Below, one piece after another: positions 18,533 to 26,716 of a stretch of 44,988 nt of DNA. Location of the stretch: IMG/VR virus record IMGVR_UViG_643348544_000004, one strand, 5' to 3'. Every line of letters begins with the position of its first letter. Position 1 is the stretch's first letter. A program made the position numbers and the translations under genes. Below the pieces are notes generated by a model that saw nothing but the letters and a program-made list of their open reading frames with translations, was not told where the DNA came from and ran no database searches. Source of the stretch: a virus. Lineage: Duplodnaviria; Heunggongvirae; Uroviricota; Caudoviricetes.

Positions 18533-20395
18533 ATGACATTTAAACACTACGATGTGGTCAGGGCGGTGTCGCCGTCAGACCTTGCTGATGCACTTGCTCA
18601 AAAAATTCGTGAAGGATGGCAACCATACGGCGGGCCGTTTTCTTCGTATACGGATGATGGCGCAGCACTTATTCAGGCGATTGTCGCAGAAGGTGATGTG
18701 GTCGTCAGTGGTGCAACTGAGCCGGAGTGGTACTACGTCATCGTACTGGCCGGGCAGTCTAATGCCATGGCTTACGGTGAAGGGCTTCCGCTTCCGGATT
18801 CATACGATGCGCCCCATCCGCGCATTAAGCAACTGGCCCGTCGTAACACAGTGACTCCCGGTGGTGAAGTATGCGTATTTAACGACATCATTCCTGCTGA
18901 CCATTGTCTGCATGATGTTCAGGATATGAGTACGATTAACCATCCCCGGGCTGACCTGAGCAAAGGGCAGTACGGCTGTGTCGGACAGGGCTTACATATT
19001 GCCAAAAAACTGCTTCCGTATATCCCTAATAATGCGGGGATCCTGCTGGTACCATGCTGTCGTGGTGGTTCGGCATTCACCCAGGGCACGGAGGGGACAT
19101 TCAGCGAGTCCACGGGGGCCAGTCAGGATTCGGCTCGCTGGGGAGTGGGTAAGCCGTTATATCAGGATCTGCTTTTCCGCACGAAGGCAGCATTGCAGAA
19201 AAACCCGAAAAACGTTTTGCTGGCGATATGCTGGATGCAGGGGGAATTCGATATGAAGAATGCCAGTTACGCCCAGCAGCCAGCAGCATTTCTTGCAATG
19301 GTACAGCAGTTCCGTGCTGACCTTGCCGGGCTGGCGGCGCAGTGTCACGGTGGAAGTCCGGCATCAGTCCCCTGGATTTGTGGCGACACGACATACGCGT
19401 GGAAACAAGAACACGGTACACAATATGAAGTGGTATATGGTGCATATAAAGGTAAAGAATCCCAGCAGATTTATTTTGTTCCCTTTATGACCGATGGTAG
19501 CGGAGTTAATACACCGACAAACAACCCGTCAGAAGATCCTGATATTGCCGGGTCTGGTTATTACGGTTCGGCATCCCGAACGAACAAAAACTGGGTATCA
19601 TCAAATCGCCCGACGCATTTCAGCTCATGGGCGCGTCGTGGCATTATTCCCGATCGTATGGCAACTGCTATTCTGAACGTAGCCGGTCGCACCTTAGCCT
19701 TCATTAGTGGTAAGGCACCGGAAATCAAACCCTCGCCCGGCGGCGACACGCCATCGGGGCCGTCTGAAGATGCATCCGTACGCACAATCTCCCTGTTGCC
19801 GACAGCCGGAGATGCTGCTGCGCAGGGCTGGAGCATTAAGAATGGCGGAATTCAGTTGTCAGATGGTGTATTTAAGATCACCAAGCAGAGCAATAAAGCC
19901 TGGTCCCTGACGCGCCCGGTGGATGACGCAGTCTCCCTGCTGACACGGGGTGGCAGACTGAGCTGTAAGTTTCGACTGTCAGGCGCACTGACCAACAACC
20001 AGTTCGGTCTGGGAATTTATCTGTATACCGATGTAGCGTTACCTGACGTCGTGGCGATGACCGGGACTGGTAACCCGTTCCTGATGTCGTTCTTCACCCA
20101 GACCACAGACGGCAAACTGAATCTGATGCATCACAAGAAAGCAGGAAACACAAAGTTGGGCGAGTTCGGGAATTACAGTAACGACTGGCAGACGCTGGAG
20201 CTGGTGTTCACCGCCGGCAGTGCCACGGTTACTCCGAAACTGAATGGAGTGGCTGGCCCGGCATTCCAGGTCATAAAAGACAGTCTGACAGTGGGACTAA
20301 ATGCACTGACGCTGACGGATATTACCAAAAATGCAACGTATGGCGTTGAGATAGAAAGTCTGGTGCTGGAGATAAATGCACCGGCATCATCATAA
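18533..20395 (+). CDS. Prophage NanS-p-like sialate O-acetylesterase (N-terminal DUF1737-like + SGNH/SASA esterase + C-terminal domain), 620 aa
   Basis: GQSNAMAYG motif typical of sialate O-acetylesterases; position between tRNAs and holin as in Stx-type lambdoid phages. Confidence 0.7.
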
Positions 20396-20544
20396 AAAGT
20401 GAGCCAGTCAAATGGAAGGTATCGTTAAACTCACCGGTAGTGTCAGTGGGTCGTCTGAGACGCCTGCATGAGTTATCAGAGCCATCAGTACTTAACTGGT
20501 GGCTTTTTTATTGTTGTCAGCTTCCGGATAACGGGAGACGGGGT

Positions 20545-20760
20545 ATGTACCAGATGGAAAAAATCACAACAGGTGTGTCATACACCACGTCAGCGGTGGG
20601 AACGGGCTACTGGTTCCTGCAGTTGCTGGACAGGGTTTCCCCGTCTCAGTGGGCGGCAATAGGCGTGCTGGGGAGTCTGCTGTTTGGGCTGCTGACATAT
20701 CTGACTAACCTGTATTTCAAAATCAGAGAGGACCGTCGTAAGGCGGCGCGGGGGGAGTAA
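20545..20760 (+). CDS. S: Holin S (lambdoid Stx-phage type), 71 aa, dual-start motif MYQMEK
   Basis: Sequence [71 protein letters not shown] matches remembered holin; Met1 and Met4 candidate starts. Confidence 0.85.
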
Positions 20761-20764
20761 AGCG

Positions 20765-21571
20765 ATGAAGAAAAAATACGAACTGGGTGTTAAAGGGATA
20801 AATAATTATCCGGATAAGATTACTGTTACTGTGGCACTGGAAATTGGTGGGTATCCGTCACTGTTGTTGCCAGATGTGGCGATTAGTCTTGACCGTACTG
20901 AAGGTGCCACGCTGGAGTTTTACGAAGCTGAGGCGAAAAAGCAGGCGAAGCAGTTTTTCATGGATGTTGCTGCCGGGTTATGTGAAGGGGATGAGCAGTC
21001 GCCGGAAAAGCGCCCCGTAATTTTAGAGGCGCAGAATGTGTGGATAACCTACAAAGGAAAGCTACCGGGAAGAATTACTGGTTCTCTGAAGATGCCGCCG
21101 TCAACACTGCGGTCAGAAAAAGAGGCGTCTTGTCTGCAGTCTGAGTACTCCATTACGGTTAAAAGTGCCGGAGAGGAAGGAAATAAACGTTATTTTATTG
21201 CGTCTGCACCTGATAAAGATCAGGAATGGGAGTGTAACCGGCCATCCTTTGTTGTATACGGAGATGGCGGGAAAATAACCATCTCAGAAAATGGGAAATT
21301 AACACCGCCATCGCACCAGCATAGTGAGGCGCTCATTGAATTTGCCATTGATTACCTGAAGAACAATAAAAAGCAGGGGCTGATGAAGCGCATTGGTCGT
21401 TGCATGGGATATCTGCAGGTAGCAGCTGAGATTGAAATGATGGCCAGTGGTGCTGACAATGATGCAGTTGTGCTGGAGGCTCTTCTGCGTGATTTTGATA
21501 ATACGCCCTTTAAGAAAGCACCTGTTGACTGGATGCAGCCGGGGATGACTTATCTGAAAGGGCGTATATAA
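20765..21571 (+). CDS. Protein of unknown function, 268 aa, inserted between holin and endolysin
   Basis: ATG 5 nt after holin stop, so likely co-transcribed with late genes; no motif or family recognised. Confidence 0.5.
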   Translation: MKKKYELGVKGINNYPDKITVTVALEIGGYPSLLLPDVAISLDRTEGATLEFYEAEAKKQAKQFFMDVAAGLCEGDEQSPEKRPVILEAQNVWITYKGKLPGRITGSLKMPPSTLRSEKEASCLQSEYSITVKSAGEEGNKRYFIASAPDKDQEWECNRPSFVVYGDGGKITISENGKLTPPSHQHSEALIEFAIDYLKNNKKQGLMKRIGRCMGYLQVAAEIEMMASGADNDAVVLEALLRDFDNTPFKKAPVDWMQPGMTYLKGRI

Positions 21572-21580
21572 GGTGGCTCG

Positions 21581-21895
21581 TTATCTGTTGCTGGATAATC
21601 GACTGAAGATGCGTTCTTTTTGTGTTTTTGCGTAATGATTGTCCCACTCACAATCAAGGTAGCTTAATTCTTCATTCAACCAGTTATTTATATTGGTCTT
21701 AATACGCATAAGCATGGGCTGTGTTAATGCTCTGGCGATAATGCCGAGAGTCACAGGTGTGAGATGTCCATACGGCTCAGCCTGAATGGATTTTACTGCA
21801 TCGTGTTCTTGTGGGAGGAGTAAGAGGCACTCTGATTTTACCCGCTCATTTATGGCTTGCAGGCATAAATCATAATTATGTTGATCGTTATGCAT
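21581..21895 (-). CDS. Protein of unknown function, 104 aa, convergent with the 268-aa gene
   Basis: GAGG RBS about 8 nt upstream of ATG; inverted repeat in its 5' region; no family recognised. Confidence 0.45.
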   Translation of the reverse strand: MHNDQHNYDLCLQAINERVKSECLLLLPQEHDAVKSIQAEPYGHLTPVTLGIIARALTQPMLMRIKTNINNWLNEELSYLDCEWDNHYAKTQKERIFSRLSSNR

Positions 21896-21908
21896 GGTTA
21901 ATCCTCTA

Positions 21909-21932
21909 CTGAAATTGTCAGATATATTTCAG
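21909..21932. promoter_or_regulatory. Perfect 7-bp inverted repeat CTGAAAT-N10-ATTTCAG in the 5' region of the minus-strand 104-aa gene
   Basis: Read directly; lies 14-39 nt upstream of the minus-strand start codon. Confidence 0.35.
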
Positions 21933-22023
21933 CCATCAGGAAAAACGCCAGTGTCCTACCGCTGGCGGGCTGAAGATTTAACATATCCAGGGATTCGGAA
22001 CCGATAAATCCTGATAAATATCC

Positions 22024-22557
22024 ATGAACACCAAAATCAAATATGGCCTGTCGGCTGCCGTTCTGGCGTTGATTGCCATCGGTGCGCCTGCGCCTGATAT
22101 TCTCGACCAGTTTCTGGATGAAAAAGAAGGTAACCACACAACGGCATACCGTGATGGTGCGGGTATCTGGACCATCTGCCGCGGTGCCACAATGGTGGAT
22201 GGTAAACCTGTTATTCCGGGCATGAAACTGTCGAAGGAAAAATGCGACCAGGTTAATGCCATTGAACGGGATAAGGCGCTGGCATGGGTGGAGCGCAATA
22301 TTAAAGTTCCACTGACCGAACCACAGAAAGCGGGTATAGCGTCATTCTGTCCCTATAACATTGGCCCCGGTAAGTGTTTCCCGTCGACGTTTTATAAGCG
22401 GCTGAATGCTGGTGACCGCAGGGGAGCGTGTGAGGCGATTCGCTGGTGGATTAAGGACGGTGGCAGAGACTGCCGTATCCGCTCAAATAACTGTTATGGT
22501 CAGGTATCCCGTCGTGACCAGGAGAGCGCGCTGGCGTGCTGGGGAATCGACAGATAA
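22024..22557 (+). CDS. R: Endolysin R (phage lysozyme, likely SAR type with N-terminal signal-anchor-release helix), 177 aa
   Basis: N-terminal Gly/Ala-rich weakly hydrophobic segment (LSAAVLALIAIGAPAP) followed by lysozyme-like domain resembling phage 21-type endolysin. Confidence 0.8.
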   Translation: MNTKIKYGLSAAVLALIAIGAPAPDILDQFLDEKEGNHTTAYRDGAGIWTICRGATMVDGKPVIPGMKLSKEKCDQVNAIERDKALAWVERNIKVPLTEPQKAGIASFCPYNIGPGKCFPSTFYKRLNAGDRRGACEAIRWWIKDGGRDCRIRSNNCYGQVSRRDQESALACWGIDR

Positions 22558-22649
22558 GCAGAATATTTTGCTGAAAAATAAGGCATGGCCACGCGGGCGG
22601 ATAACACGAAATCCTGCGAACTGGCGAAACGTAAGTGAATAAAAGTAAA

Positions 22650-22687
22650 AACCCCGTTTGTTGGCAGCAAGCGGGGTTTTGTTTTTA
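22650..22687 (+). terminator. Rho-independent terminator downstream of endolysin
   Basis: AACCCCGTTTG...CAAGCGGGGTT hairpin followed by TTGTTTTTA. Confidence 0.5.
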
Positions 22688-22849
22688 TGGCAGTAAGCTA
22701 TGGGAGGCTGCCTTGATTGATTTTAGCAAACTGATTAGGGAGTTGCGACTCATGATTAGTCAATTACCAAACTGGAAATTTTTGCTGGTCTGGAGCATCC
22801 CTTTTTTATGGGTAGTATCCCAGTTAATTGTGGCAATTAAGGGGTAGCT

Positions 22850-22981
22850 ATGTCAGACAAACTCATAACGCCGGCAAAGGTCCTGTGTGTGATTGTCGGT
22901 ATTTCATTTTCACTAATGCTGGTTGCTCTTTTTCTGTCCCTCGCCTGGGTGATGTTGTCTTCGTCGGGGCTGCTGGGGTGA
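22850..22981 (+). CDS. Small predicted membrane peptide, 43 aa (MSDKLITPAKVLCVIVGISFSLMLVALFLSLAWVMLSSSGLLG)
   Basis: Manual translation; one hydrophobic helix; below track cutoff. Confidence 0.3.
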   Translation: MSDKLITPAKVLCVIVGISFSLMLVALFLSLAWVMLSSSGLLG

Positions 22982-22983
22982 CA

Positions 22984-23100
22984 GTGACTGATGACATCAG
23001 CAGAGCGCTGGCTTTTGCTATTAAGTGGGTGGCTGTTGGTATTGCTGTGTCTCCGATGCTATATGGGCTGGCAAAACTGGTCATTGCGCTGAAATCGTGA
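22984..23100 (+). CDS. Small predicted membrane peptide, about 38 aa, GTG start (…DDISRALAFAIKWVAVGIAVSPMLYGLAKLVIALKS)
   Basis: C-terminal part of the 90-aa track frame; paralogous to the following 28-aa peptide (shared RA[LM]AFAI[KR]xVA motif). Confidence 0.25.
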   Translation: MTDDISRALAFAIKWVAVGIAVSPMLYGLAKLVIALKS

Positions 23101-23111
23101 ACTTTAAAAAG

Positions 23112-23198
23112 ATGAGTGCTGAACTTATTCGGGCAATGGCATTTGCCATTCGTATTGTGGCCATTGCTGTTCTGGTCTGGGCAATCCGTTGGTGGTGA
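23112..23198 (+). CDS. Small predicted membrane peptide, 28 aa ([28 protein letters not shown])
   Basis: Manual translation; stop TGA 1 nt before Rz ATG. Confidence 0.3.
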
Positions 23199-23199
23199 T

Positions 23200-23667
23200 A
23201 TGAACCGTGTTCTGTGTGTGGTGATTATTGTCATGCTGGTGGCCTGTGGTGCGCTTAGTCTGGGGCTGAATCATTACCGTGATAACGCCATTACCTACAA
23301 AGCCCAGCGCGACAAAAATGTCAGAGAACTGAAGCTGGCGAACGCGGCAATTACTGACATGCAGATGCGTCAGCGTGATGTTGCTGCGCTCGATGCAAAA
23401 TACTCGAGGGAATTAGCCGATGCGAGAGCTGAAAATGAAACTCTTCGCGCTGACGTTGCCGCTGGTCGTAAGCGCCTGCGTATCAACGCCACCTGTCCAG
23501 GTCCCGTGCGTGAAGCCACCGGCACCGCCCGCGTGGATAATGCAACCGGCCCCCGACTGGCAGACACCGCTGAACGGGATTATTTCACCCTCAGAGAGCG
23601 GCTGATGACGATGCACAAGCAACTGGAAGGGGCGCAGGAATATATCCGTACTCAGTGCCTGAAATAA
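23200..23667 (+). CDS. Rz: Spanin inner-membrane subunit Rz, 155 aa
   Basis: N-terminal TM helix, coiled-coil-like remainder, embedded Rz1 in +1 frame. Confidence 0.75.
23435..23605 (+). CDS. Rz1: Spanin outer-membrane lipoprotein Rz1 (embedded in Rz), 56 aa
   Basis: [15 protein letters not shown] lipobox-like signal, Pro-rich mature region; entirely within Rz in another frame. Confidence 0.7.
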
Positions 23668-23865
23668 GTTTTGTTGATGCGCCGTATCGTCGCTGTATTC
23701 CCTCATTAACAGAGACCGCAGCCCGACAGGGAGACTCCTCTGCGCGAGTGTGCGGGGATAATCAAAAACGATACACACCGGGGTTTACCGCGTTAACGGA
23801 GCGCGGCGTTGTCCCCTCATAGTCGCCTGTCCGGTGCGATGGTGGAAGAAACCGGACTACATTGA

Positions 23866-23886
23866 AAATGATAACCATTATCATTT
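23866..23886. promoter_or_regulatory. Palindrome AAATGATAA-cca-TTATCATTT resembling a Fur box, in the Rz-to-terminase intergenic region (probable cos region)
   Basis: 16-mer AATGATAACCATTATC matches the remembered Fur consensus core AATGATAATCATTATC at 15 of 16 positions; alternative interpretation is an IHF or terminase site of cosB. Confidence 0.3.
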
Positions 23887-24119
23887 TTGCGGGTCCTCCT
23901 GGTGGGGTGGGCCTGAACACGGGGCGGACGGCGCGGGAAAAGGCGCATTTTTGTGATTTTATCGTCATCATCATCATTAGCGTAACTTGTTGTTTTTAAT
24001 GTGTTTAGCATTAAAAAGATGATGATTGTGGTTGATTTTTGTTCGACATCTTTATATGGCGGCATTTCTTTACAAAAAAAGAGCCACTTTTGTTCAGCGG
24101 TTTATGTGGAGGGATGTGA

Positions 24120-24596
24120 ATGGACGGCGAGCTGAAAAATATGAAGTTAAATATTAATCAACTGGCAGCCATTTCAGGTCTGCACCGGCAGACTGTTGCC
24201 GCCAGAATGGCGGATGTTCCTCTTGCACCAGGTAGTAATGAAAAGAAAAAAATGTATCTCCTGACGGATTTGATTATTTCGTTGCTGGAAAAACCACCGG
24301 CTTCCGAAGATGAAGAGATGAACCCACATGATCGGAAGGCATGGTATCAGTCCGAGCGCGAGCGTCTTAAATTTCAGCATGAAACTGTTCAGCTTGTGCC
24401 AGTCAGTGATGTCAGGCGGTCCTTTTCTGTCGTGGTGAAAGCGATAGTTCAGGTACTGGAAACCTGGCCTGACCGGCTGGAGAGGGACAGGGGGTGGACC
24501 GCATCACAACTGAATGAAGTACAGATTGTGGTTGATGAGATCCGCGATACACTGGAAAAGGCAGTCATTGACTGTTGTGATGAGGCCGATATGTGA
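24120..24596 (+). CDS. nu1: Terminase small subunit (Nu1-like), 158 aa
   Basis: N-terminal HTH-like region similar to lambda Nu1; GGAGGG RBS; stop overlaps terL start. Confidence 0.7.
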   Translation: MDGELKNMKLNINQLAAISGLHRQTVAARMADVPLAPGSNEKKKMYLLTDLIISLLEKPPASEDEEMNPHDRKAWYQSERERLKFQHETVQLVPVSDVRRSFSVVVKAIVQVLETWPDRLERDRGWTASQLNEVQIVVDEIRDTLEKAVIDCCDEADM

Positions 24597-26716
24597 ATCA
24601 GGTGAACGAGAGCCATAGCCGCGCATCCGATATCTGGCGCGAAGTGGCCTCGCTGTTTCGCCCACCCAGCCGGTTACCAGTAGCGGAAGCCATCAGGCGT
24701 TATATGCGGGTACCACGGGGAGCCAATACTTCCGGTCCGTGGGAGTCATCGCTGACGCCCTATATGATTGACCCCATTAATACATTATCAGCCCGTGAAT
24801 ATGACGCGGTGGTGTTTGTGGGACCTGCGCGAACCGGGAAAACCGAAGGGCTGATTGATGGCTGGATTGTGTACGGCATCATCTGTGATCCGGCGGATAT
24901 GCTGGTGGTGCAGATGACTGAGACGAAGGCGCGTGAGCATTCCAGAACGCGTCTTTCCAGAACGTTTCGCCACAGTCCGGAGGTCAGCAAGCGCCTCAGT
25001 CCTTCCCGTAATGACAACAACGTCCACGATAAAATGTTTCTTGACGGCTCCTTCCTGAAGATTGGCTGGCCGTCGATCACTGTATTTTCTTCTTCGGATT
25101 ACCGTCGTGTGGCGCTGACGGATTATGACCGTTTCCCTGAAAACGTGGACGGGGAAGGGGATGCCTTCACCCTGGCATCAAAGCGTACCACCACCTTTAT
25201 GTCCTCGGGGATGACCTTGGTCGAGAGTTCGCCGGGGCGGGATATCACTGACACCAAATGGCGCTGTGGCGGCGCACATGAGGCACCGCCAACAACGGGG
25301 ATCCTGTCACTGTATAACCGGGGAGACCGCCGCCGGTGGTACTGGCCGTGTCCGCACTGCGGGGAATATTTTCAGCCGGTGATGGATAACATGACCGGAT
25401 ACCGGAATAACCCGGATTTTGTGGCTGCCGGTCAGGCTGCCCGTCTGATGTGTCCGCATTGTCGCGGGCTGATTGCCCCTGAGCAGAAACGCGAACTGAA
25501 TAACAAAGGGATCTGGCTTCGTGAAGGTGAACGGGCGGTGGCGGACGGCAGTATCACCGGAACACCACGAAATTCCAGGATTGCGTCATTCTGGATGGAG
25601 GGGCCGGCTGCGGCGTTTCAGACCTGGGAACAACTGATTTTTAAACTGCTGGCGGCAGAAGAAGAGTATGAGCGAACCGGCAGTGAAGAGACCCTGAAAG
25701 CGGTGGTGAACACCGATATCGGACGCCCCTATCTGCCCCGTTCAGCCACGGAACAGCGTAAAAGTGAACTGCTTGAACAGCGTGCCGAGCCGTTTCCCCG
25801 GCGATCTGTGCCGGATGGTGTGCGTTTTATTGAGGCAACGGTTGATGTACAGGGCGGTAAAAATCGCCGTTTTGTTGTGCAGATCACCGGATACGGAGAG
25901 CAGGGGGAACGCTGGATTGTTGATCGCTATAACATCCGGCATTCACTGCGCTGCAGTCCCAACGGTGAAAGTCTGCCGGTTGATCCGGCGGCATATCCGG
26001 AGGACTGGGATTTGTTGCTGACGGATGTGTTCCATAAAACATGGCCGCTGGCTTCTGATCCGGATGTGCGCATGCGTCTGATGGCCATGGCGGTGGATAC
26101 GGGAGGGGAAGCCGGGGTGACAGATAACGCCTATCGTTTCTGGCGTCGTTGCCGGAGTGACGGACTGGGCAACAGGGTGTTTCTGTTCAAGGGGGATGGA
26201 CTTCGCCGTGACAGGCTGATTAACCGTACCTTCCCGGATAATACCGGCAGAAGTGCCCGCCGTGCCAGAGCCAGTGGCGATGTCGCGCTGTGGCTGGTTC
26301 AGACGGATGCGTTTAAGGACCGTGTAAATAATGCCCTGTGGCGTGACACACCAGGGCCGAACTATATCCACTTTCCCGACTGGCTGGGGCGATGGTTTTA
26401 CGATGAGCTGACCTATGAAGAGCGCGGCAGTGACGGAAAATGGCGAAAACCGGGTAGGGGAGCTAACGAGGCGTTTGACCTGCTGGTTTATGCGGATGCG
26501 CTTGCCGTTCTGCATGGTTACGAAAAGATCCGCTGGCCCTCCGCACCGGACTGGGCACAGCGGGAAACGTGGCTCGTCTTCCCGCAGGAGCGTTCTGGTG
26601 AAACGGTATCCCCGGAACTGACGGCCGGGGCAGAAAAACGCCGTCGCCGGAAGAAAAAACTGCGGACGGAGCGTGCGGAAGATAATCCATGGATAACATC
26701 AGGAGGCTGGTTGTGA
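24593..26716 (+). CDS. A: Terminase large subunit (gpA-like), 707 aa
   Basis: Walker A-like VGPARTGKTE near N-terminus; position and size typical of lambda gpA. Confidence 0.9.
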   Translation: MNQVNESHSRASDIWREVASLFRPPSRLPVAEAIRRYMRVPRGANTSGPWESSLTPYMIDPINTLSAREYDAVVFVGPARTGKTEGLIDGWIVYGIICDPADMLVVQMTETKAREHSRTRLSRTFRHSPEVSKRLSPSRNDNNVHDKMFLDGSFLKIGWPSITVFSSSDYRRVALTDYDRFPENVDGEGDAFTLASKRTTTFMSSGMTLVESSPGRDITDTKWRCGGAHEAPPTTGILSLYNRGDRRRWYWPCPHCGEYFQPVMDNMTGYRNNPDFVAAGQAARLMCPHCRGLIAPEQKRELNNKGIWLREGERAVADGSITGTPRNSRIASFWMEGPAAAFQTWEQLIFKLLAAEEEYERTGSEETLKAVVNTDIGRPYLPRSATEQRKSELLEQRAEPFPRRSVPDGVRFIEATVDVQGGKNRRFVVQITGYGEQGERWIVDRYNIRHSLRCSPNGESLPVDPAAYPEDWDLLLTDVFHKTWPLASDPDVRMRLMAMAVDTGGEAGVTDNAYRFWRRCRSDGLGNRVFLFKGDGLRRDRLINRTFPDNTGRSARRARASGDVALWLVQTDAFKDRVNNALWRDTPGPNYIHFPDWLGRWFYDELTYEERGSDGKWRKPGRGANEAFDLLVYADALAVLHGYEKIRWPSAPDWAQRETWLVFPQERSGETVSPELTAGAEKRRRRKKKLRTERAEDNPWITSGGWL

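What the first reader, a model, noticed from the sequence alone, without database searches (positions are those of the whole stretch)
22650..23198. Terminator followed by a cluster of small hydrophobic peptide ORFs between endolysin and Rz
After the endolysin there is an intrinsic terminator and then at least three short ORFs (43, about 38 and 28 codons) with single hydrophobic helices. The last two share a motif (RALAFAIKWVAVGIAV versus [14 protein letters not shown]), which suggests tandem duplication. The final one ends 1 nt before the Rz start. No track ORF of 60 aa or more explains this 0.5 kb. Such peptides could be type I toxins, lysis-timing factors or small membrane regulators, or the region could be an RNA element.
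Basis: partly seen in the sequence, partly recalled or inferred. Interest (0 to 1): 0.55.

Follow-up and report, generated by a model that had tools for sequence, protein, structure and literature searches.

The report
Small membrane-peptide genes in phage lysis cassette
The gap between the endolysin and spanin genes of this E. coli prophage holds a real transcription terminator followed by four (not three) small membrane-protein genes from catalogued but uncharacterised phage families, which probably act late in infection at the cell membrane.

Summary
The window is an E. coli lambdoid prophage. After the SAR-type lysozyme R (22024-22557) comes a strong intrinsic-terminator hairpin (22648-22680). 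Four closely spaced or stop/start-overlapping small ORFs follow, the last ending 1 nt before Rz (23200).

- **The ORFs:** Each has one hydrophobic helix.
- **Catalogue status:** they match PHROG families of unknown function (6632; 4906; 1115/4493/3246). They have no Pfam, NCBIfam, PADLOC or Rfam match.
- **Coding evidence:** substitution patterns show protein-level purifying selection for the O family (pN/pS about 0.1) and the B core (0.14). The signal is weaker for C (0.36) and weak for A (0.5-0.6). An A homologue in O157 Sakai (ECs_1966) was called translated by published Ribo-seq.
- **Relationships:** B and C belong to one family, but both are N-terminally truncated copies of 57-60-aa forms. 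O and A are unrelated to them.
- **Context:** "terminator + small-TM ORF" recurs as a unit. It lies between endolysin and spanin in at least two non-homologous lysis cassettes, and in tail modules of other phages.

The function is unknown. A late-only accessory lysis or membrane role is the best guess (about 45%). The type I toxin and RNA-element readings are not supported.

The parts
20545..20760 (+). Class II (phage 21 S-type) holin, context gene of the lysis cassette
   Evidence: PF04971, E 9e-33. The translation has an MYQMEK dual-Met N-terminus. PGAP calls it 'class II holin family protein'.
22024..22557 (+). Lysozyme R with a hydrophobic N-terminal (SAR-like) segment
   Evidence: PF00959, E 3e-25. 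The N-terminus reads MNTKIKYGLSAAVLALIAIGAP. Annotated as lysozyme R in homologous phages.
22558..22643 (+). Conserved R 3'-flank shared by otherwise different R-Rz intervals
   Evidence: Identity is 88-95% to L003-L006 up to position 22643, after which the architectures diverge. An internal patch (22573-22631) is hypervariable among near-identical loci. Function unknown.
22648..22690 (+). Intrinsic terminator: hairpin 22648-22680 plus T-tract
   Evidence: -22.6 kcal/mol, z -3.87. Covariation across 12 cassettes. It co-occurs with the downstream small ORF in unrelated genomic contexts.
22713..22847 (+). ORF0, 44 aa, TTG start, SD GGGAGG at 22702-07; O family (phrog_6632). It has an N-terminal amphipathic segment and one transmembrane (TM) helix.
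   Evidence: phrog_6632, E 1.4e-13 over residues 1-43. Homologues of about 45 aa occur in many Enterobacterales and in P. aeruginosa. For the family, pN/pS is 0.06-0.10 against 1.6-2.3 in the other sense frames and 0.28-2.3 in the antisense frames. Hydropathy is 2.19 over residues 24-42.
22850..22981 (+). ORF A, 43 aa, ATG start, SD AAGGGG; family phrog_4906; one TM helix
   Evidence: phrog_4906, E 4.5e-21. There are 103 protein clusters, and every hit with a source name is from E. coli; most full-length clusters are 43-44 aa. Of 173 copies, 163 are intact. pN/pS is 0.51 overall and 0.33 in the TM core. The Sakai homologue ECs_1966 = XECs191 has a Ribo-seq call.
22978..23100 (+). ORF B, 40 aa (GTG 22978, overlapping A's stop as GTGA) or 38 aa (GTG 22984). 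It is a B/C-family copy (phrog_1115) lacking the N-terminal domain.
   Evidence: phrog_1115, E 6e-25. Core pN/pS is 0.14 against 0.28-4.8 in the other five frames; 33 variable sites are split 10/3/20 by codon position. The full-length 60-aa form exists elsewhere.
23097..23198 (+). ORF C, 33 aa (GTG 23097, overlapping B's stop as GTGA) or 28 aa (ATG 23112). It is a B/C-family copy lacking the N-terminal domain. Its stop lies 1 nt before the Rz ATG.
   Evidence: phrog_4493, E 4e-7. Paralogy to B: z 5.2 and alignment. pN/pS is 0.36, the lowest of the six frames. The full-length 57-aa form is in phiSTEC1575-Stx2k, and a homologue carrying the same N-terminal segment is in GER2.
23200..23667 (+). 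Rz i-spanin, with embedded Rz1 lipoprotein ORF at 23420-23605; downstream context genes
   Evidence: PF03245, E 2e-51. The Rz1-like ORF carries an LVVSAC lipobox.

Best explanation
The 0.55 kb between R and Rz is a modular cassette: an intrinsic terminator followed by four closely spaced or stop/start-overlapping genes for very small single-pass inner-membrane proteins. These are ORF0 (O family), A, and two N-terminally truncated B/C-family copies.

**Shown**
- The hairpin and the ORFs exist.
- The O and B/C sequences evolve under protein-level purifying selection.
- 'Terminator + leader + small-TM ORF' is inherited as a unit and shuffled between phages.

**Inferred**
- No promoter-like site was found between the terminator and the ORFs. 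The genes would then be reached only by terminator-resistant late transcription from the Q-modified polymerase. This follows from established lambdoid biology, and the prophage's late-gene layout fits it.
- The upstream terminator, and the non-ATG start codon seen in every O-family copy examined, would keep expression off in the lysogen and low in the lytic cycle.
- The peptides insert in the inner membrane alongside the pinholin, the membrane-tethered endolysin and the Rz anchor. There they would modulate the timing or efficiency of lysis.
- In addition, the last ORF, which ends 1 nt before the Rz ATG and whose last two sense codons (TGG TGG) form an SD-like GGTGG, may pass ribosomes on to Rz.
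- The array in this window was most likely assembled by recombination between simpler cassettes (R-O-Rz, R-B-A-Rz, R-B-C-Rz), not by a single local duplication.
For: - **Anatomy:**
- **Catalogue matches:** PHROG matches for all four ORFs.
- **Purifying selection in the annotated frame only:** O 0.06-0.10; B core 0.14; the N-terminal extension of B-long 0.16; C 0.36.
- **Length conservation:** O-family proteins are about 45 aa across Escherichia, Salmonella, Enterobacter, Citrobacter, Klebsiella, Providencia and Pseudomonas.
- **Translation evidence:** a published Ribo-seq call for an A-family member in prophage Sp10 of Sakai, lying between ant and Rz (PMC5597208).
- **TM-grade hydrophobic 19-mers:** mean Kyte-Doolittle hydropathy 1.9-2.9 in all four.
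- **Modular architectures among 262 loci:** R-O-Rz 80; R-O-A-B-C-Rz 74 (plus 5 with ant); R-B-A-Rz 64; R-B-C-Rz 3; and others.
- **Position between endolysin and spanin(-like) genes, with the terminator, in non-homologous lysis cassettes:**
  - GH24 lysozyme + Rz (window; SPN3UB).
  - GH19-like endolysin (weak/faint Pfam hit) + an unrelated overlapping spanin-like pair inferred from sequence, in Enterobacter.
  - M15 peptidase + a 60-aa lipoprotein of unknown role, for the B/C family.
- **Upstream of a holin:** the O-A unit sits directly upstream of a lambda-type holin in L097.
- **Start codons:** the start is GTG or TTG in every O-family copy examined.
- **Hairpin covariation:**
Against: - No experiment links any of these peptides to lysis.
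- The O family also occurs, with the same terminator, outside lysis cassettes. It sits in the baseplate V-W gap of SEN34, Rac-SA53 and pPE4 and in the tail K-I region of P. aeruginosa prophages. Position is therefore not lysis-specific.
- A is only weakly constrained: pN/pS is 0.5-0.6 and is not distinguishable from one antisense frame. Ten of 173 copies are frameshifted.
- One O copy carries two nonsense mutations (L090).
- K-12 Qin has rrrQ and rzpQ overlapping with no such ORFs, so the peptides are dispensable for a lysis cassette.
- B and C here lack the N-terminal domain of the full-length forms and could be decaying.
- The Ribo-seq signal is weak (translatome RPKM 12.6, ribosome coverage value RCV 0.43) and comes from uninduced cultures.
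Confidence: 0.45

Rival explanations
1. The peptides are moron-like cargo unrelated to lysis. They are mobile small membrane proteins that ride in late operons and do something else at the membrane. Candidates are superinfection exclusion, blocking DNA injection into the infected cell, or modulating a host membrane protein. The R-Rz gap is simply a permissive insertion hotspot.
For: - The O family, with its terminator, also sits in baseplate and tail modules.
- The R-Rz gap is a cargo hotspot: ant genes and a DNA methyltransferase are inserted at the same place.
- In P. aeruginosa the O gene lies among several small hypothetical genes.
- There is a weak Ribo-seq/RNA signal in uninduced Sakai cultures.
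Against: - No promoter-like site precedes the ORFs, and a terminator lies directly upstream. This is the opposite of the classic promoter-gene-terminator moron, so expression in the lysogen is unlikely.
- Placement between endolysin and spanin recurs in non-homologous cassettes.
- No PADLOC match.
Confidence: 0.25
2. The window's A, B and C ORFs are mainly recombination scars. They are truncated leftovers of full-length cassette genes, kept open because hydrophobic NTN codons rarely mutate to stops and because an upstream translated ORF is needed to deliver ribosomes to Rz. The peptide products themselves have no function.
For: - B and C lack the N-terminal domain present in the 60-aa and 57-aa forms.
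- Constraint on A is weak and frameshifted A variants exist.
- A pseudogenised O copy exists.
- Stop/start overlaps (GTGA) and a 1-nt gap before Rz suggest coupling.
- The Rz junction is conserved as TGGTGGTGA(A/T)ATG.
- In lambda (recalled, not tested here) and in K-12 Qin, R and Rz overlap directly, so an insertion at this point would need a bridging ORF.
Against: - The B core (38 codons, the part retained in the window) has pN/pS 0.14, with 20 of 33 variable sites at third positions.
- The O family has pN/pS 0.06-0.10 and a conserved length across genera.
- C's own frame gives the lowest ratio of the six frames.
- A spacer ORF would not need a conserved amino-acid sequence.
Confidence: 0.2
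3. The ORFs encode type I toxin-like peptides, controlled by an antisense RNA and acting as a prophage addiction or abortive-infection module.
For: - The products are short hydrophobic single-helix peptides.
- A weak sigma-70-like match on the minus strand (22856->22827, 9/12) faces the bidirectional-looking hairpin.
Against: - Promoter-like matches in the region are fewer than in its shuffles (3 against 5.1 +/- 2.6), and the ORFs have no promoter of their own.
- No Rfam family matches.
- The genes are co-oriented with, and closely spaced inside, the late operon.
- The minus-strand site is absent from the simpler R-O-Rz cassette.
- No PADLOC match.
Confidence: 0.04
4. The region downstream of the terminator is a structured non-coding RNA element, not coding sequence.
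For: The terminator hairpin is a real, covarying RNA structure. Some relatives have a small stem next to the SD.
Against: - No Rfam hit at E <= 1.
- The window's leader stem folds no better than shuffles (z +1.5).
- Substitutions respect codons in the O, B and C frames.
- All four ORFs match PHROG protein families.
Confidence: 0.03

Closest known systems
Accessory membrane proteins of phage lysis cassettes: antiholins and holin-like regulators such as P1 LydB/LydC/LydD, single-TM holin-like partners in mycobacteriophages, and the Mu releasin gp25
   Same: - They are small membrane proteins encoded beside holin, endolysin and spanin genes.
- They are expressed late.
- They sit in a system with a pinholin and a SAR-type endolysin, whose release is known to be modulated by extra membrane proteins. 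This rests on the abstracts of PMC9239132, PMC9025707 and PMC13056207 listed.
   Different: - There is no sequence relationship: no Pfam or NCBIfam hit.
- They are much smaller, at 28-45 aa against roughly 80-150 aa (sizes recalled, not tested here).
- They have almost no soluble domain.
- No genetic or biochemical evidence exists.
- O-family members also occur outside lysis cassettes.
Morons of lambdoid phages (for example lambda bor/lom, HK97 gp15; recalled from the literature, not tested here)
   Same: - They are small, mobile, non-essential genes inserted between conserved late genes.
- They are found in varying combinations in mosaic genomes.
- They are membrane-located.
   Different: Classic morons carry their own promoter and a downstream terminator and are expressed from the prophage. 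Here the terminator is upstream, no promoter is detectable, and the ORFs run straight into the next late gene.
Type I toxin peptides (Hok, TisB, Ibs, Zor classes)
   Same: They are hydrophobic single-helix peptides of 28-45 aa.
   Different: - No own promoter.
- No antisense RNA.
- No family match.
- Operonic late-gene context.
PHROG families phrog_6632, phrog_4906, phrog_1115/4493/3246, and RefSeq hypothetical proteins WP_001280935.1, WP_042004856.1, WP_032140280.1
   Same: The window's ORFs are members by sequence.
   Different: These catalogue entries carry no function, no description of the cassette and no link to each other.

Membership tests
Rho-independent (intrinsic) terminator | G+C-rich stem-loop immediately followed by a U-tract | tested here: met
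   Stem 22648-22680 plus TTTTGTTTTT. Fold -22.6 kcal/mol, z -3.87. Compensatory changes across 12 homologous cassettes.
Rho-independent (intrinsic) terminator | Terminates unmodified RNA polymerase and is read through by Q-modified polymerase | not testable with these tools
   Needs in vitro or in vivo transcription assays.
PHROG small-protein families 6632 / 4906 / 1115-4493-3246 | Significant profile match over most of the protein | tested here: met
   ORF0 E 1.4e-13; A E 4.5e-21; B E 6.4e-25; C E 4.4e-7.
   z 5.2, 0/500 shuffles. The joint alignment has an invariant RAxAFAI..VA core. Hybrid and full-length forms link the two.
   B-type and C-type exist separately in other architectures (R-B-A-Rz, R-B-C-Rz, C-type alone in GER2 and phiSTEC1575). 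Recombination between cassettes is an equally good or better explanation.
Holin / pinholin | Match to a holin family | tested here: not met
   No Pfam or NCBIfam holin hit at E <= 10.
Holin / pinholin | Lethal hole formation | not testable with these tools
   Lethality cannot be tested here. The cassette already has a PF04971 holin.
Antiholin / lysis regulator | Alters lysis timing through interaction with holin, endolysin or spanin | not testable with these tools
   Only positional evidence exists.
Type I toxin-antitoxin | Own promoter for the toxin mRNA plus an overlapping or adjacent antisense RNA | tested here: not met
   No + strand promoter-like site between 22690 and 22850. Overall promoter-like matches are fewer than in shuffles. 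No Rfam match.
Moron | Promoter upstream and terminator downstream of an autonomous gene, expressed from the prophage | tested here: not met
   The terminator is upstream, no promoter is found, and the last ORF abuts Rz.
Moron | Mobile, non-essential insertion between conserved genes | tested here: met
   Variable presence and several insertion contexts.
Spanin (i-, o- or u-spanin) | Periplasmic domain after an N-terminal TM helix (i-spanin), or a lipobox (o-/u-spanin) | tested here: not met
   Read directly from the sequences: the C-terminal tails beyond the TM helix are 2-14 residues and there is no lipobox. A profile comparison of A with Rz N-termini gives probability 0.55%.

The most novel reading that the evidence does not exclude
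'Terminator + weak-start small-TM ORF' cassettes (the O and B/C families, with A as a frequent partner) may be an unrecognised class of lysis-cassette genes. They would be late-only, deliberately insulated membrane peptides that sit between endolysin and spanin in non-homologous lysis cassettes. They could tune the release of membrane-tethered endolysin, the triggering of the holin, or spanin activation. Their widespread presence in Shiga-toxin phages would then make them modifiers of lysis timing, and so of toxin release.
Probability: 0.25. Interest if true: 0.65.

Novelty: new variant of a known kind. Interest (0 to 1): 0.4.

Why it matters
These peptide genes are common. The window-type R-to-Rz segment is present at 80% coverage or more in 620 of 5,426 complete E. 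coli genomes. Relatives lie in the lysis cassettes of many Stx1 and Stx2 converting phages. No functional study of them turned up in the searches made here.

If they modulate lysis, they would add a component to the well-studied holin-endolysin-spanin scheme. They could also influence the timing of Shiga-toxin release, which depends on phage lysis.

Even if they do not, the recurrent cassette is a tidy example of how late-operon cargo is organised and shuffled. It consists of an insulating terminator, a conserved leader, a non-ATG start and a small TM ORF. It is also a good test set for small-protein annotation.

Tried and rejected
1. **A as a relic of an Rz 5' end (TM anchor).** A profile-profile comparison with Rz N-termini taken from the loci gave probability 0.55%. 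Rejected as unsupported.
2. **All four ORFs as one paralogous family.** hhalign gave O vs B/C 18%, A vs B/C 0.6% and A vs O 0.3%. Only B and C are related.
3. **RNA family search** of 20000-24600 at E <= 1: nothing found.
4. **Domain and defence libraries.** Pfam, NCBIfam and PADLOC gave nothing meaningful.
5. **Literature.** Searches by accession, by peptide string and by 'R and Rz' phrases found no functional study. The Stx-phage lysis-cassette survey PMC8136144 does not mention these ORFs in the passages searched.
6. **SD-flanking stem in the window's own leader (22690-22711).** It folds no better than shuffles (z +1.5), so no claim is made for it.
7. **Rz as a dN/dS comparator.** It was uninformative (0.64) because of the embedded Rz1 frame and indels, and my regular expression for R caught only one sequence. 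There is therefore no clean flanking-gene control.
8. **Genome-contig scan for family A.** It returned only a 328-bp 'Xanthomonas pisi' contig, probably contamination. That collection holds one genome per species.
9. **One alignment (A6)** contained a sequence I had typed from imperfect memory. It was discarded and replaced by A7.
10. **Not used:** structure prediction and the 1.84-billion-protein search. Single helices of 28-45 aa would not have discriminated between the explanations.
Full report
**What the window is.** The 1.7 kb around the finding is 99.9% identical to a chromosomal prophage of E. coli O111:H21. It matches 5,102 E. coli records, and 620 of 5,426 complete genomes carry at least 80% of it. 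It also matches many Stx-converting and other lambdoid phages. The local gene order is as follows:

| Coordinates | Feature |
|---|---|
| 18533-20395 | sialate-esterase-like gene |
| 20545-20760 | phage-21-type class II holin (PF04971) |
| 20765-21571 | DUF1327/YdfR-like ORF |
| 21581-21895 | minus-strand ORF |
| 22024-22557 | lysozyme R (PF00959), with a hydrophobic N-terminal segment |
| 23200-23667 | Rz (PF03245), with an embedded Rz1-like lipoprotein ORF |
| 24120 onward | DUF1441 small-terminase-like gene (24120-24596), then large terminase (from 24593) |

**Check of the observation.**
- The hairpin at 22648-22680 followed by TTTTGTTTTT is the strongest terminator-like site in 20300-24200. 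It folds at -22.6 kcal/mol, z = -3.87 against dinucleotide shuffles.
- ORF A (43 codons, 22850-22981), ORF B (GTG 22978 or 22984 to 23100) and ORF C (ATG 23112 or GTG 23097 to 23198) are as described.
- C's stop is followed by a single T and then the Rz ATG.
- The B/C motif similarity exceeds composition-matched chance (z 5.2, 0/500).

Two corrections apply.
- A fourth ORF precedes A. ORF0 runs from TTG 22713 to 22847 (44 aa) and has a GGGAGG Shine-Dalgarno (SD) sequence 5 nt upstream of its start.
- Longer mechanical ORFs do overlap the region: 70 aa, 90 aa, and 123 aa on the minus strand. They are an in-frame read through the terminator, the alternate frame that stays open because hydrophobic NTN codons put T in its third position, and an antisense shadow frame.

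The ORFs are tightly packed:
- ORF0's stop, then 2 nt, then A's ATG.
- A's stop overlaps B's GTG (GTGA).
- B's stop overlaps C's upstream GTG (GTGA).
- C's stop, then 1 nt, then Rz's ATG.

**Are they genes?** All four match PHROG families of unknown function:

| ORF | PHROG family | E-value |
|---|---|---|
| ORF0 | phrog_6632, over residues 1-43, which supports the TTG start | 1.4e-13 |
| A | phrog_4906 | 4.5e-21 |
| B | phrog_1115 (also 3246, 4493) | 6.4e-25 |
| C | phrog_4493 | 4.4e-7 |

Nothing matches in Pfam, NCBIfam, PADLOC or Rfam. PGAP already annotates A, B and C as hypothetical proteins.

I collected 278 related loci and counted synonymous and non-synonymous differences between unique sequences in all six frames:

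| Family / segment | pN/pS in annotated frame | Other frames | Notes |
|---|---|---|---|
| O family | 0.06-0.10 | 0.28-2.3 | 8 of 12 variable sites at third positions (one search set) |
| B core | 0.14 | 0.28-4.8 | 33 variable sites split 10/3/20 |
| N-terminal extension of full-length B | 0.16 | 0.42 and 0.64 (other sense frames) | |
| C | 0.36 | all higher | lowest of six frames |
| A | 0.51-0.61 | 0.62-1.13 | 0.33 in the TM core; not separable from one antisense frame |

These are pairwise counts that ignore shared ancestry. They show direction, not calibrated significance.

Independent support comes from three sources.
- O-family proteins keep a length of about 45 aa in Escherichia, Salmonella, Enterobacter, Citrobacter, Klebsiella, Cronobacter, Providencia and Pseudomonas aeruginosa.
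- Most full-length A-family clusters keep 43-44 aa across at least 25 distinct sequences, and 163 of 173 copies are intact.
- A published Ribo-seq study of E. coli O157:H7 Sakai lists XECs191 as a translated novel gene. It reports translatome RPKM 12.6 and ribosome coverage value (RCV) 0.43 in LB, classifies the gene as 'real', and predicts an inner-membrane protein with one helix. XECs191 is an A-family peptide that I mapped to ECs_1966, between ant and Rz in prophage Sp10 (PMC5597208 supplements). That signal is weak and comes from uninduced cultures.

Each peptide has a 19-residue window with mean Kyte-Doolittle hydropathy of 1.9-2.9. ORF0 and A have positively charged N-flanks.

**Family relations.**
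- B and C are one family. Full-length members exist where the gene is the first ORF after the terminator. One is a 60-aa B-type: MEKYKRILLRLTMKNGLELKAPVTDD followed by the core. The other is a 57-aa C-type in phiSTEC1575-Stx2k, with a homologue carrying the same N-terminal segment in GER2.
- The window's B and C retain only the part from the RAxAFAI core onward. They are N-terminally truncated copies.
- Profile comparisons give no support for a relationship of O or A to B/C, to each other, or of A to the Rz membrane anchor.

**The cassette and where it occurs.** Among 262 loci, sampled by homology and therefore not a census, the R-Rz gap holds these arrangements:

| Architecture | Loci |
|---|---|
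| R-O-Rz | 80 |
| R-O-A-B-C-Rz (the window type) | 74 |
| R-ant-O-A-B-C-Rz | 5 |
| R-B-A-Rz | 64 |
| R-B-C-Rz | 3 |
| R-A-Rz (an ant-family gene precedes A in those inspected) | 3 |
| R-B-A-methyltransferase-Rz | 2 |
| R-B-A-B-C-Rz | 1 |

- In the window, positions 22644-22770 (terminator plus the ORF0 5' end) replace an 898-nt ant-containing segment of otherwise near-identical phages.
- The ant-containing versions have a different hairpin at the same place.
- The single 45-aa ORF of CP-1639-type phages has the N-terminus of ORF0 and ends ...IRWW*, 1 nt before Rz, like C.

The terminator travels with the first small ORF. The same arrangement is hairpin, short leader, SD, GTG or TTG start, then an O-family ORF. 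It is found in these places:
- Between R and Rz in Salmonella phage SPN3UB.
- In Enterobacter prophages, between a 210-aa endolysin with a weak/faint GH19 Pfam hit and an unrelated overlapping gene pair that looks like a two-component spanin (an N-terminal TM protein plus a lipobox protein).
- Directly upstream of a lambda-type holin in L097, as an O-A unit.
- Between baseplate genes in SEN34 (sequence read). O-family ORFs occupy the same position in Rac-SA53 and an Actinobacillus phage; the hairpin was also read in Rac-SA53.
- In the tail region of P. aeruginosa phages and prophages, where another 38-aa hydrophobic ORF follows.

A B/C-type gene with its own upstream terminator lies after an M15 endolysin, and 1 nt before a 60-aa lipoprotein gene, in phiSTEC1575-Stx2k. 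Twelve diverged hairpins align to an 11-pair consensus. Three pairs show double compensatory changes, and the only two non-standard pairs are at the innermost position.

**How it most likely works.**
- Shown: the structure, the coding constraint, and the modular inheritance.
- Inferred from established lambdoid biology: late genes are transcribed from pR' by Q-modified, terminator-resistant polymerase. A terminator placed directly in front of the peptides, with no detectable promoter after it, would then confine them to the late lytic phase. The non-ATG starts of every O-family copy examined would keep their level low.
- That degree of insulation fits membrane-active products that would be harmful in a lysogen.
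- Their recurrent placement between endolysin and spanin(-like) genes in non-homologous cassettes suggests an accessory role in lysis. Possible targets are the pinholin, the membrane-tethered endolysin and the spanin anchor.
- The terminal ORF probably also couples translation into Rz. The junction is conserved as TGGTGGTGA(A/T)ATG.
- I put about 45% on this reading. The tail-module occurrences, the dispensability (K-12 Qin has R and Rz overlapping with no peptides), the pseudogenised copies and the lack of any experiment all weigh against it.

**Rivals.**
- Late-operon cargo with a non-lysis membrane function, such as exclusion: about 25%.
- Recombination scars kept open mainly to feed ribosomes to Rz, which is most plausible for the window's A and its truncated B and C: about 20%.
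- Type I toxin: about 4%.
- Non-coding RNA beyond the terminator: about 3%.

**Comparison with what is known.**
- By sequence the ORFs belong to uncharacterised PHROG families and RefSeq hypothetical proteins.
- Functionally the nearest analogues are accessory membrane proteins of lysis cassettes (antiholins, holin-like partners, the Mu releasin; abstracts) and morons. The defining features of holins, spanins, type I toxins and classic morons were tested and not met (see the membership table).
- No functional study turned up in the searches made here.

**Verdict.** This is a real feature that is already catalogued but uncharacterised. The new content here is threefold:
- The demonstration of coding constraint.
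- The resolution into three families, with truncated B and C copies.
- The recognition of a recurrent terminator-first small-peptide cassette shared by Escherichia, Salmonella, Enterobacter and Pseudomonas phages.

Interest is moderate (0.4). The finding is common and sits in medically relevant phages, but its function remains unknown and it is not very surprising to a phage-lysis specialist.

Noticed in passing
L263 1968-2003, L264 1962-1997, L266 ~2470-2500, L088 1548-1580, L265 2468-2500, L277 2470-2502, L093 1778-1806: In cassettes other than the window's, a 4-5-bp stem with a 7-nt loop lies just 5' of, or overlapping, the SD of the first small ORF. The stem sequences differ but stay complementary: CCTTG/CAAGG, TGACT/AGTCA, CATG/CATG and CCTG/CAGG. 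This may be a translational control element. The window's own leader (GGCAG...CTGCC around the SD) folds no better than shuffles.
   Followed up: partly
window 22713; L088 1578; L263 2001; L264 1995; L265 2498; L266 2501; L277 2502: Every O-family copy examined starts with GTG or TTG, never ATG, in Escherichia, Salmonella, Enterobacter and Pseudomonas phages. This suggests selection for weak initiation.
   Followed up: partly
window 22558-22643: The 86 nt after the R stop are 88-95% identical in phages whose R-Rz intervals are otherwise different, and are recognisable even in Salmonella phage SPN3UB. They contain a hypervariable patch (22573-22631) that differs among near-identical loci. It could be a 3'-UTR element or a recombination joint. 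No Rfam match.
   Followed up: partly
window 20396-20544 (terminator-like hairpin 20478-20506): The gap between the sialate-esterase-like gene and the holin holds a second strong terminator-like hairpin. A 2026 preprint (10.64898/2026.05.13.724894) places the prophage sRNAs PasA/PasC at exactly this position (esterase - pas - holin - lysozyme). Rfam gave no hit for 20000-24600.
   Followed up: no
window 20765-21571 and 21581-21895 (minus strand): Between holin and lysozyme lies a 268-aa ORF. Only its first 100 residues match DUF1327/YdfR, and PGAP calls the homologous stretch a truncated pseudogene. A convergent 104-aa ORF with no family match follows. This is a second cargo slot inside the lysis cassette.
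   Followed up: partly
L090 1578-1715 (Stx2a phage Stx2_14744); L189-L203: One O-family copy carries two nonsense mutations (CGA->TGA and TGG->TAG). Ten loci carry a frameshifted A that still ends at the same stop. The peptides are therefore dispensable in at least some prophages.
   Followed up: partly
L095/L096 2138-3073; L003, L005, L091 (231-aa ANT-domain gene); L004, L006, L098-L101, L262 (189/190-aa antirepressor-family gene): The R-Rz gap is a cargo hotspot. An N6/N4 DNA methyltransferase is inserted between A and Rz. Two different ant-family genes are inserted between the post-R hairpin and the peptides.
   Followed up: partly
L270 2149-2331 (phiSTEC1575-Stx2k): A 60-aa lipoprotein (lipobox LVGC, no TM helix after it) starts 1 nt after the full-length C-type peptide, in a cassette with two holins and an M15 endolysin and no recognisable Rz. 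It may be an unusual outer-membrane lysis component.
   Followed up: no
L263 1736-1846 (Salmonella phage SPN3UB): Another unannotated 36-aa hydrophobic ORF (MSKRDVSALCFLMAAAVAISGNDGWGWLIFAGIIIL) starts a few bases before the endolysin stop codon, upstream of the conserved 3' flank and terminator.
   Followed up: no
L265 2671-2787; L272 2689-2805 (P. aeruginosa): The Pseudomonas O-family gene is followed by a 38-aa hydrophobic ORF (MNAKDAGIVGKRLANAALILATGVAIASIIAAIGVVLG). This mirrors the O-then-A order in E. coli without detectable sequence similarity to A.
   Followed up: no
L007 (NZ_JPLE01000251.1, 328 bp, 'Xanthomonas pisi'): A 328-bp contig in a Xanthomonas assembly encodes an A-family peptide 70% identical to the window's. 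It is most likely E. coli phage contamination of that assembly.
   Followed up: no
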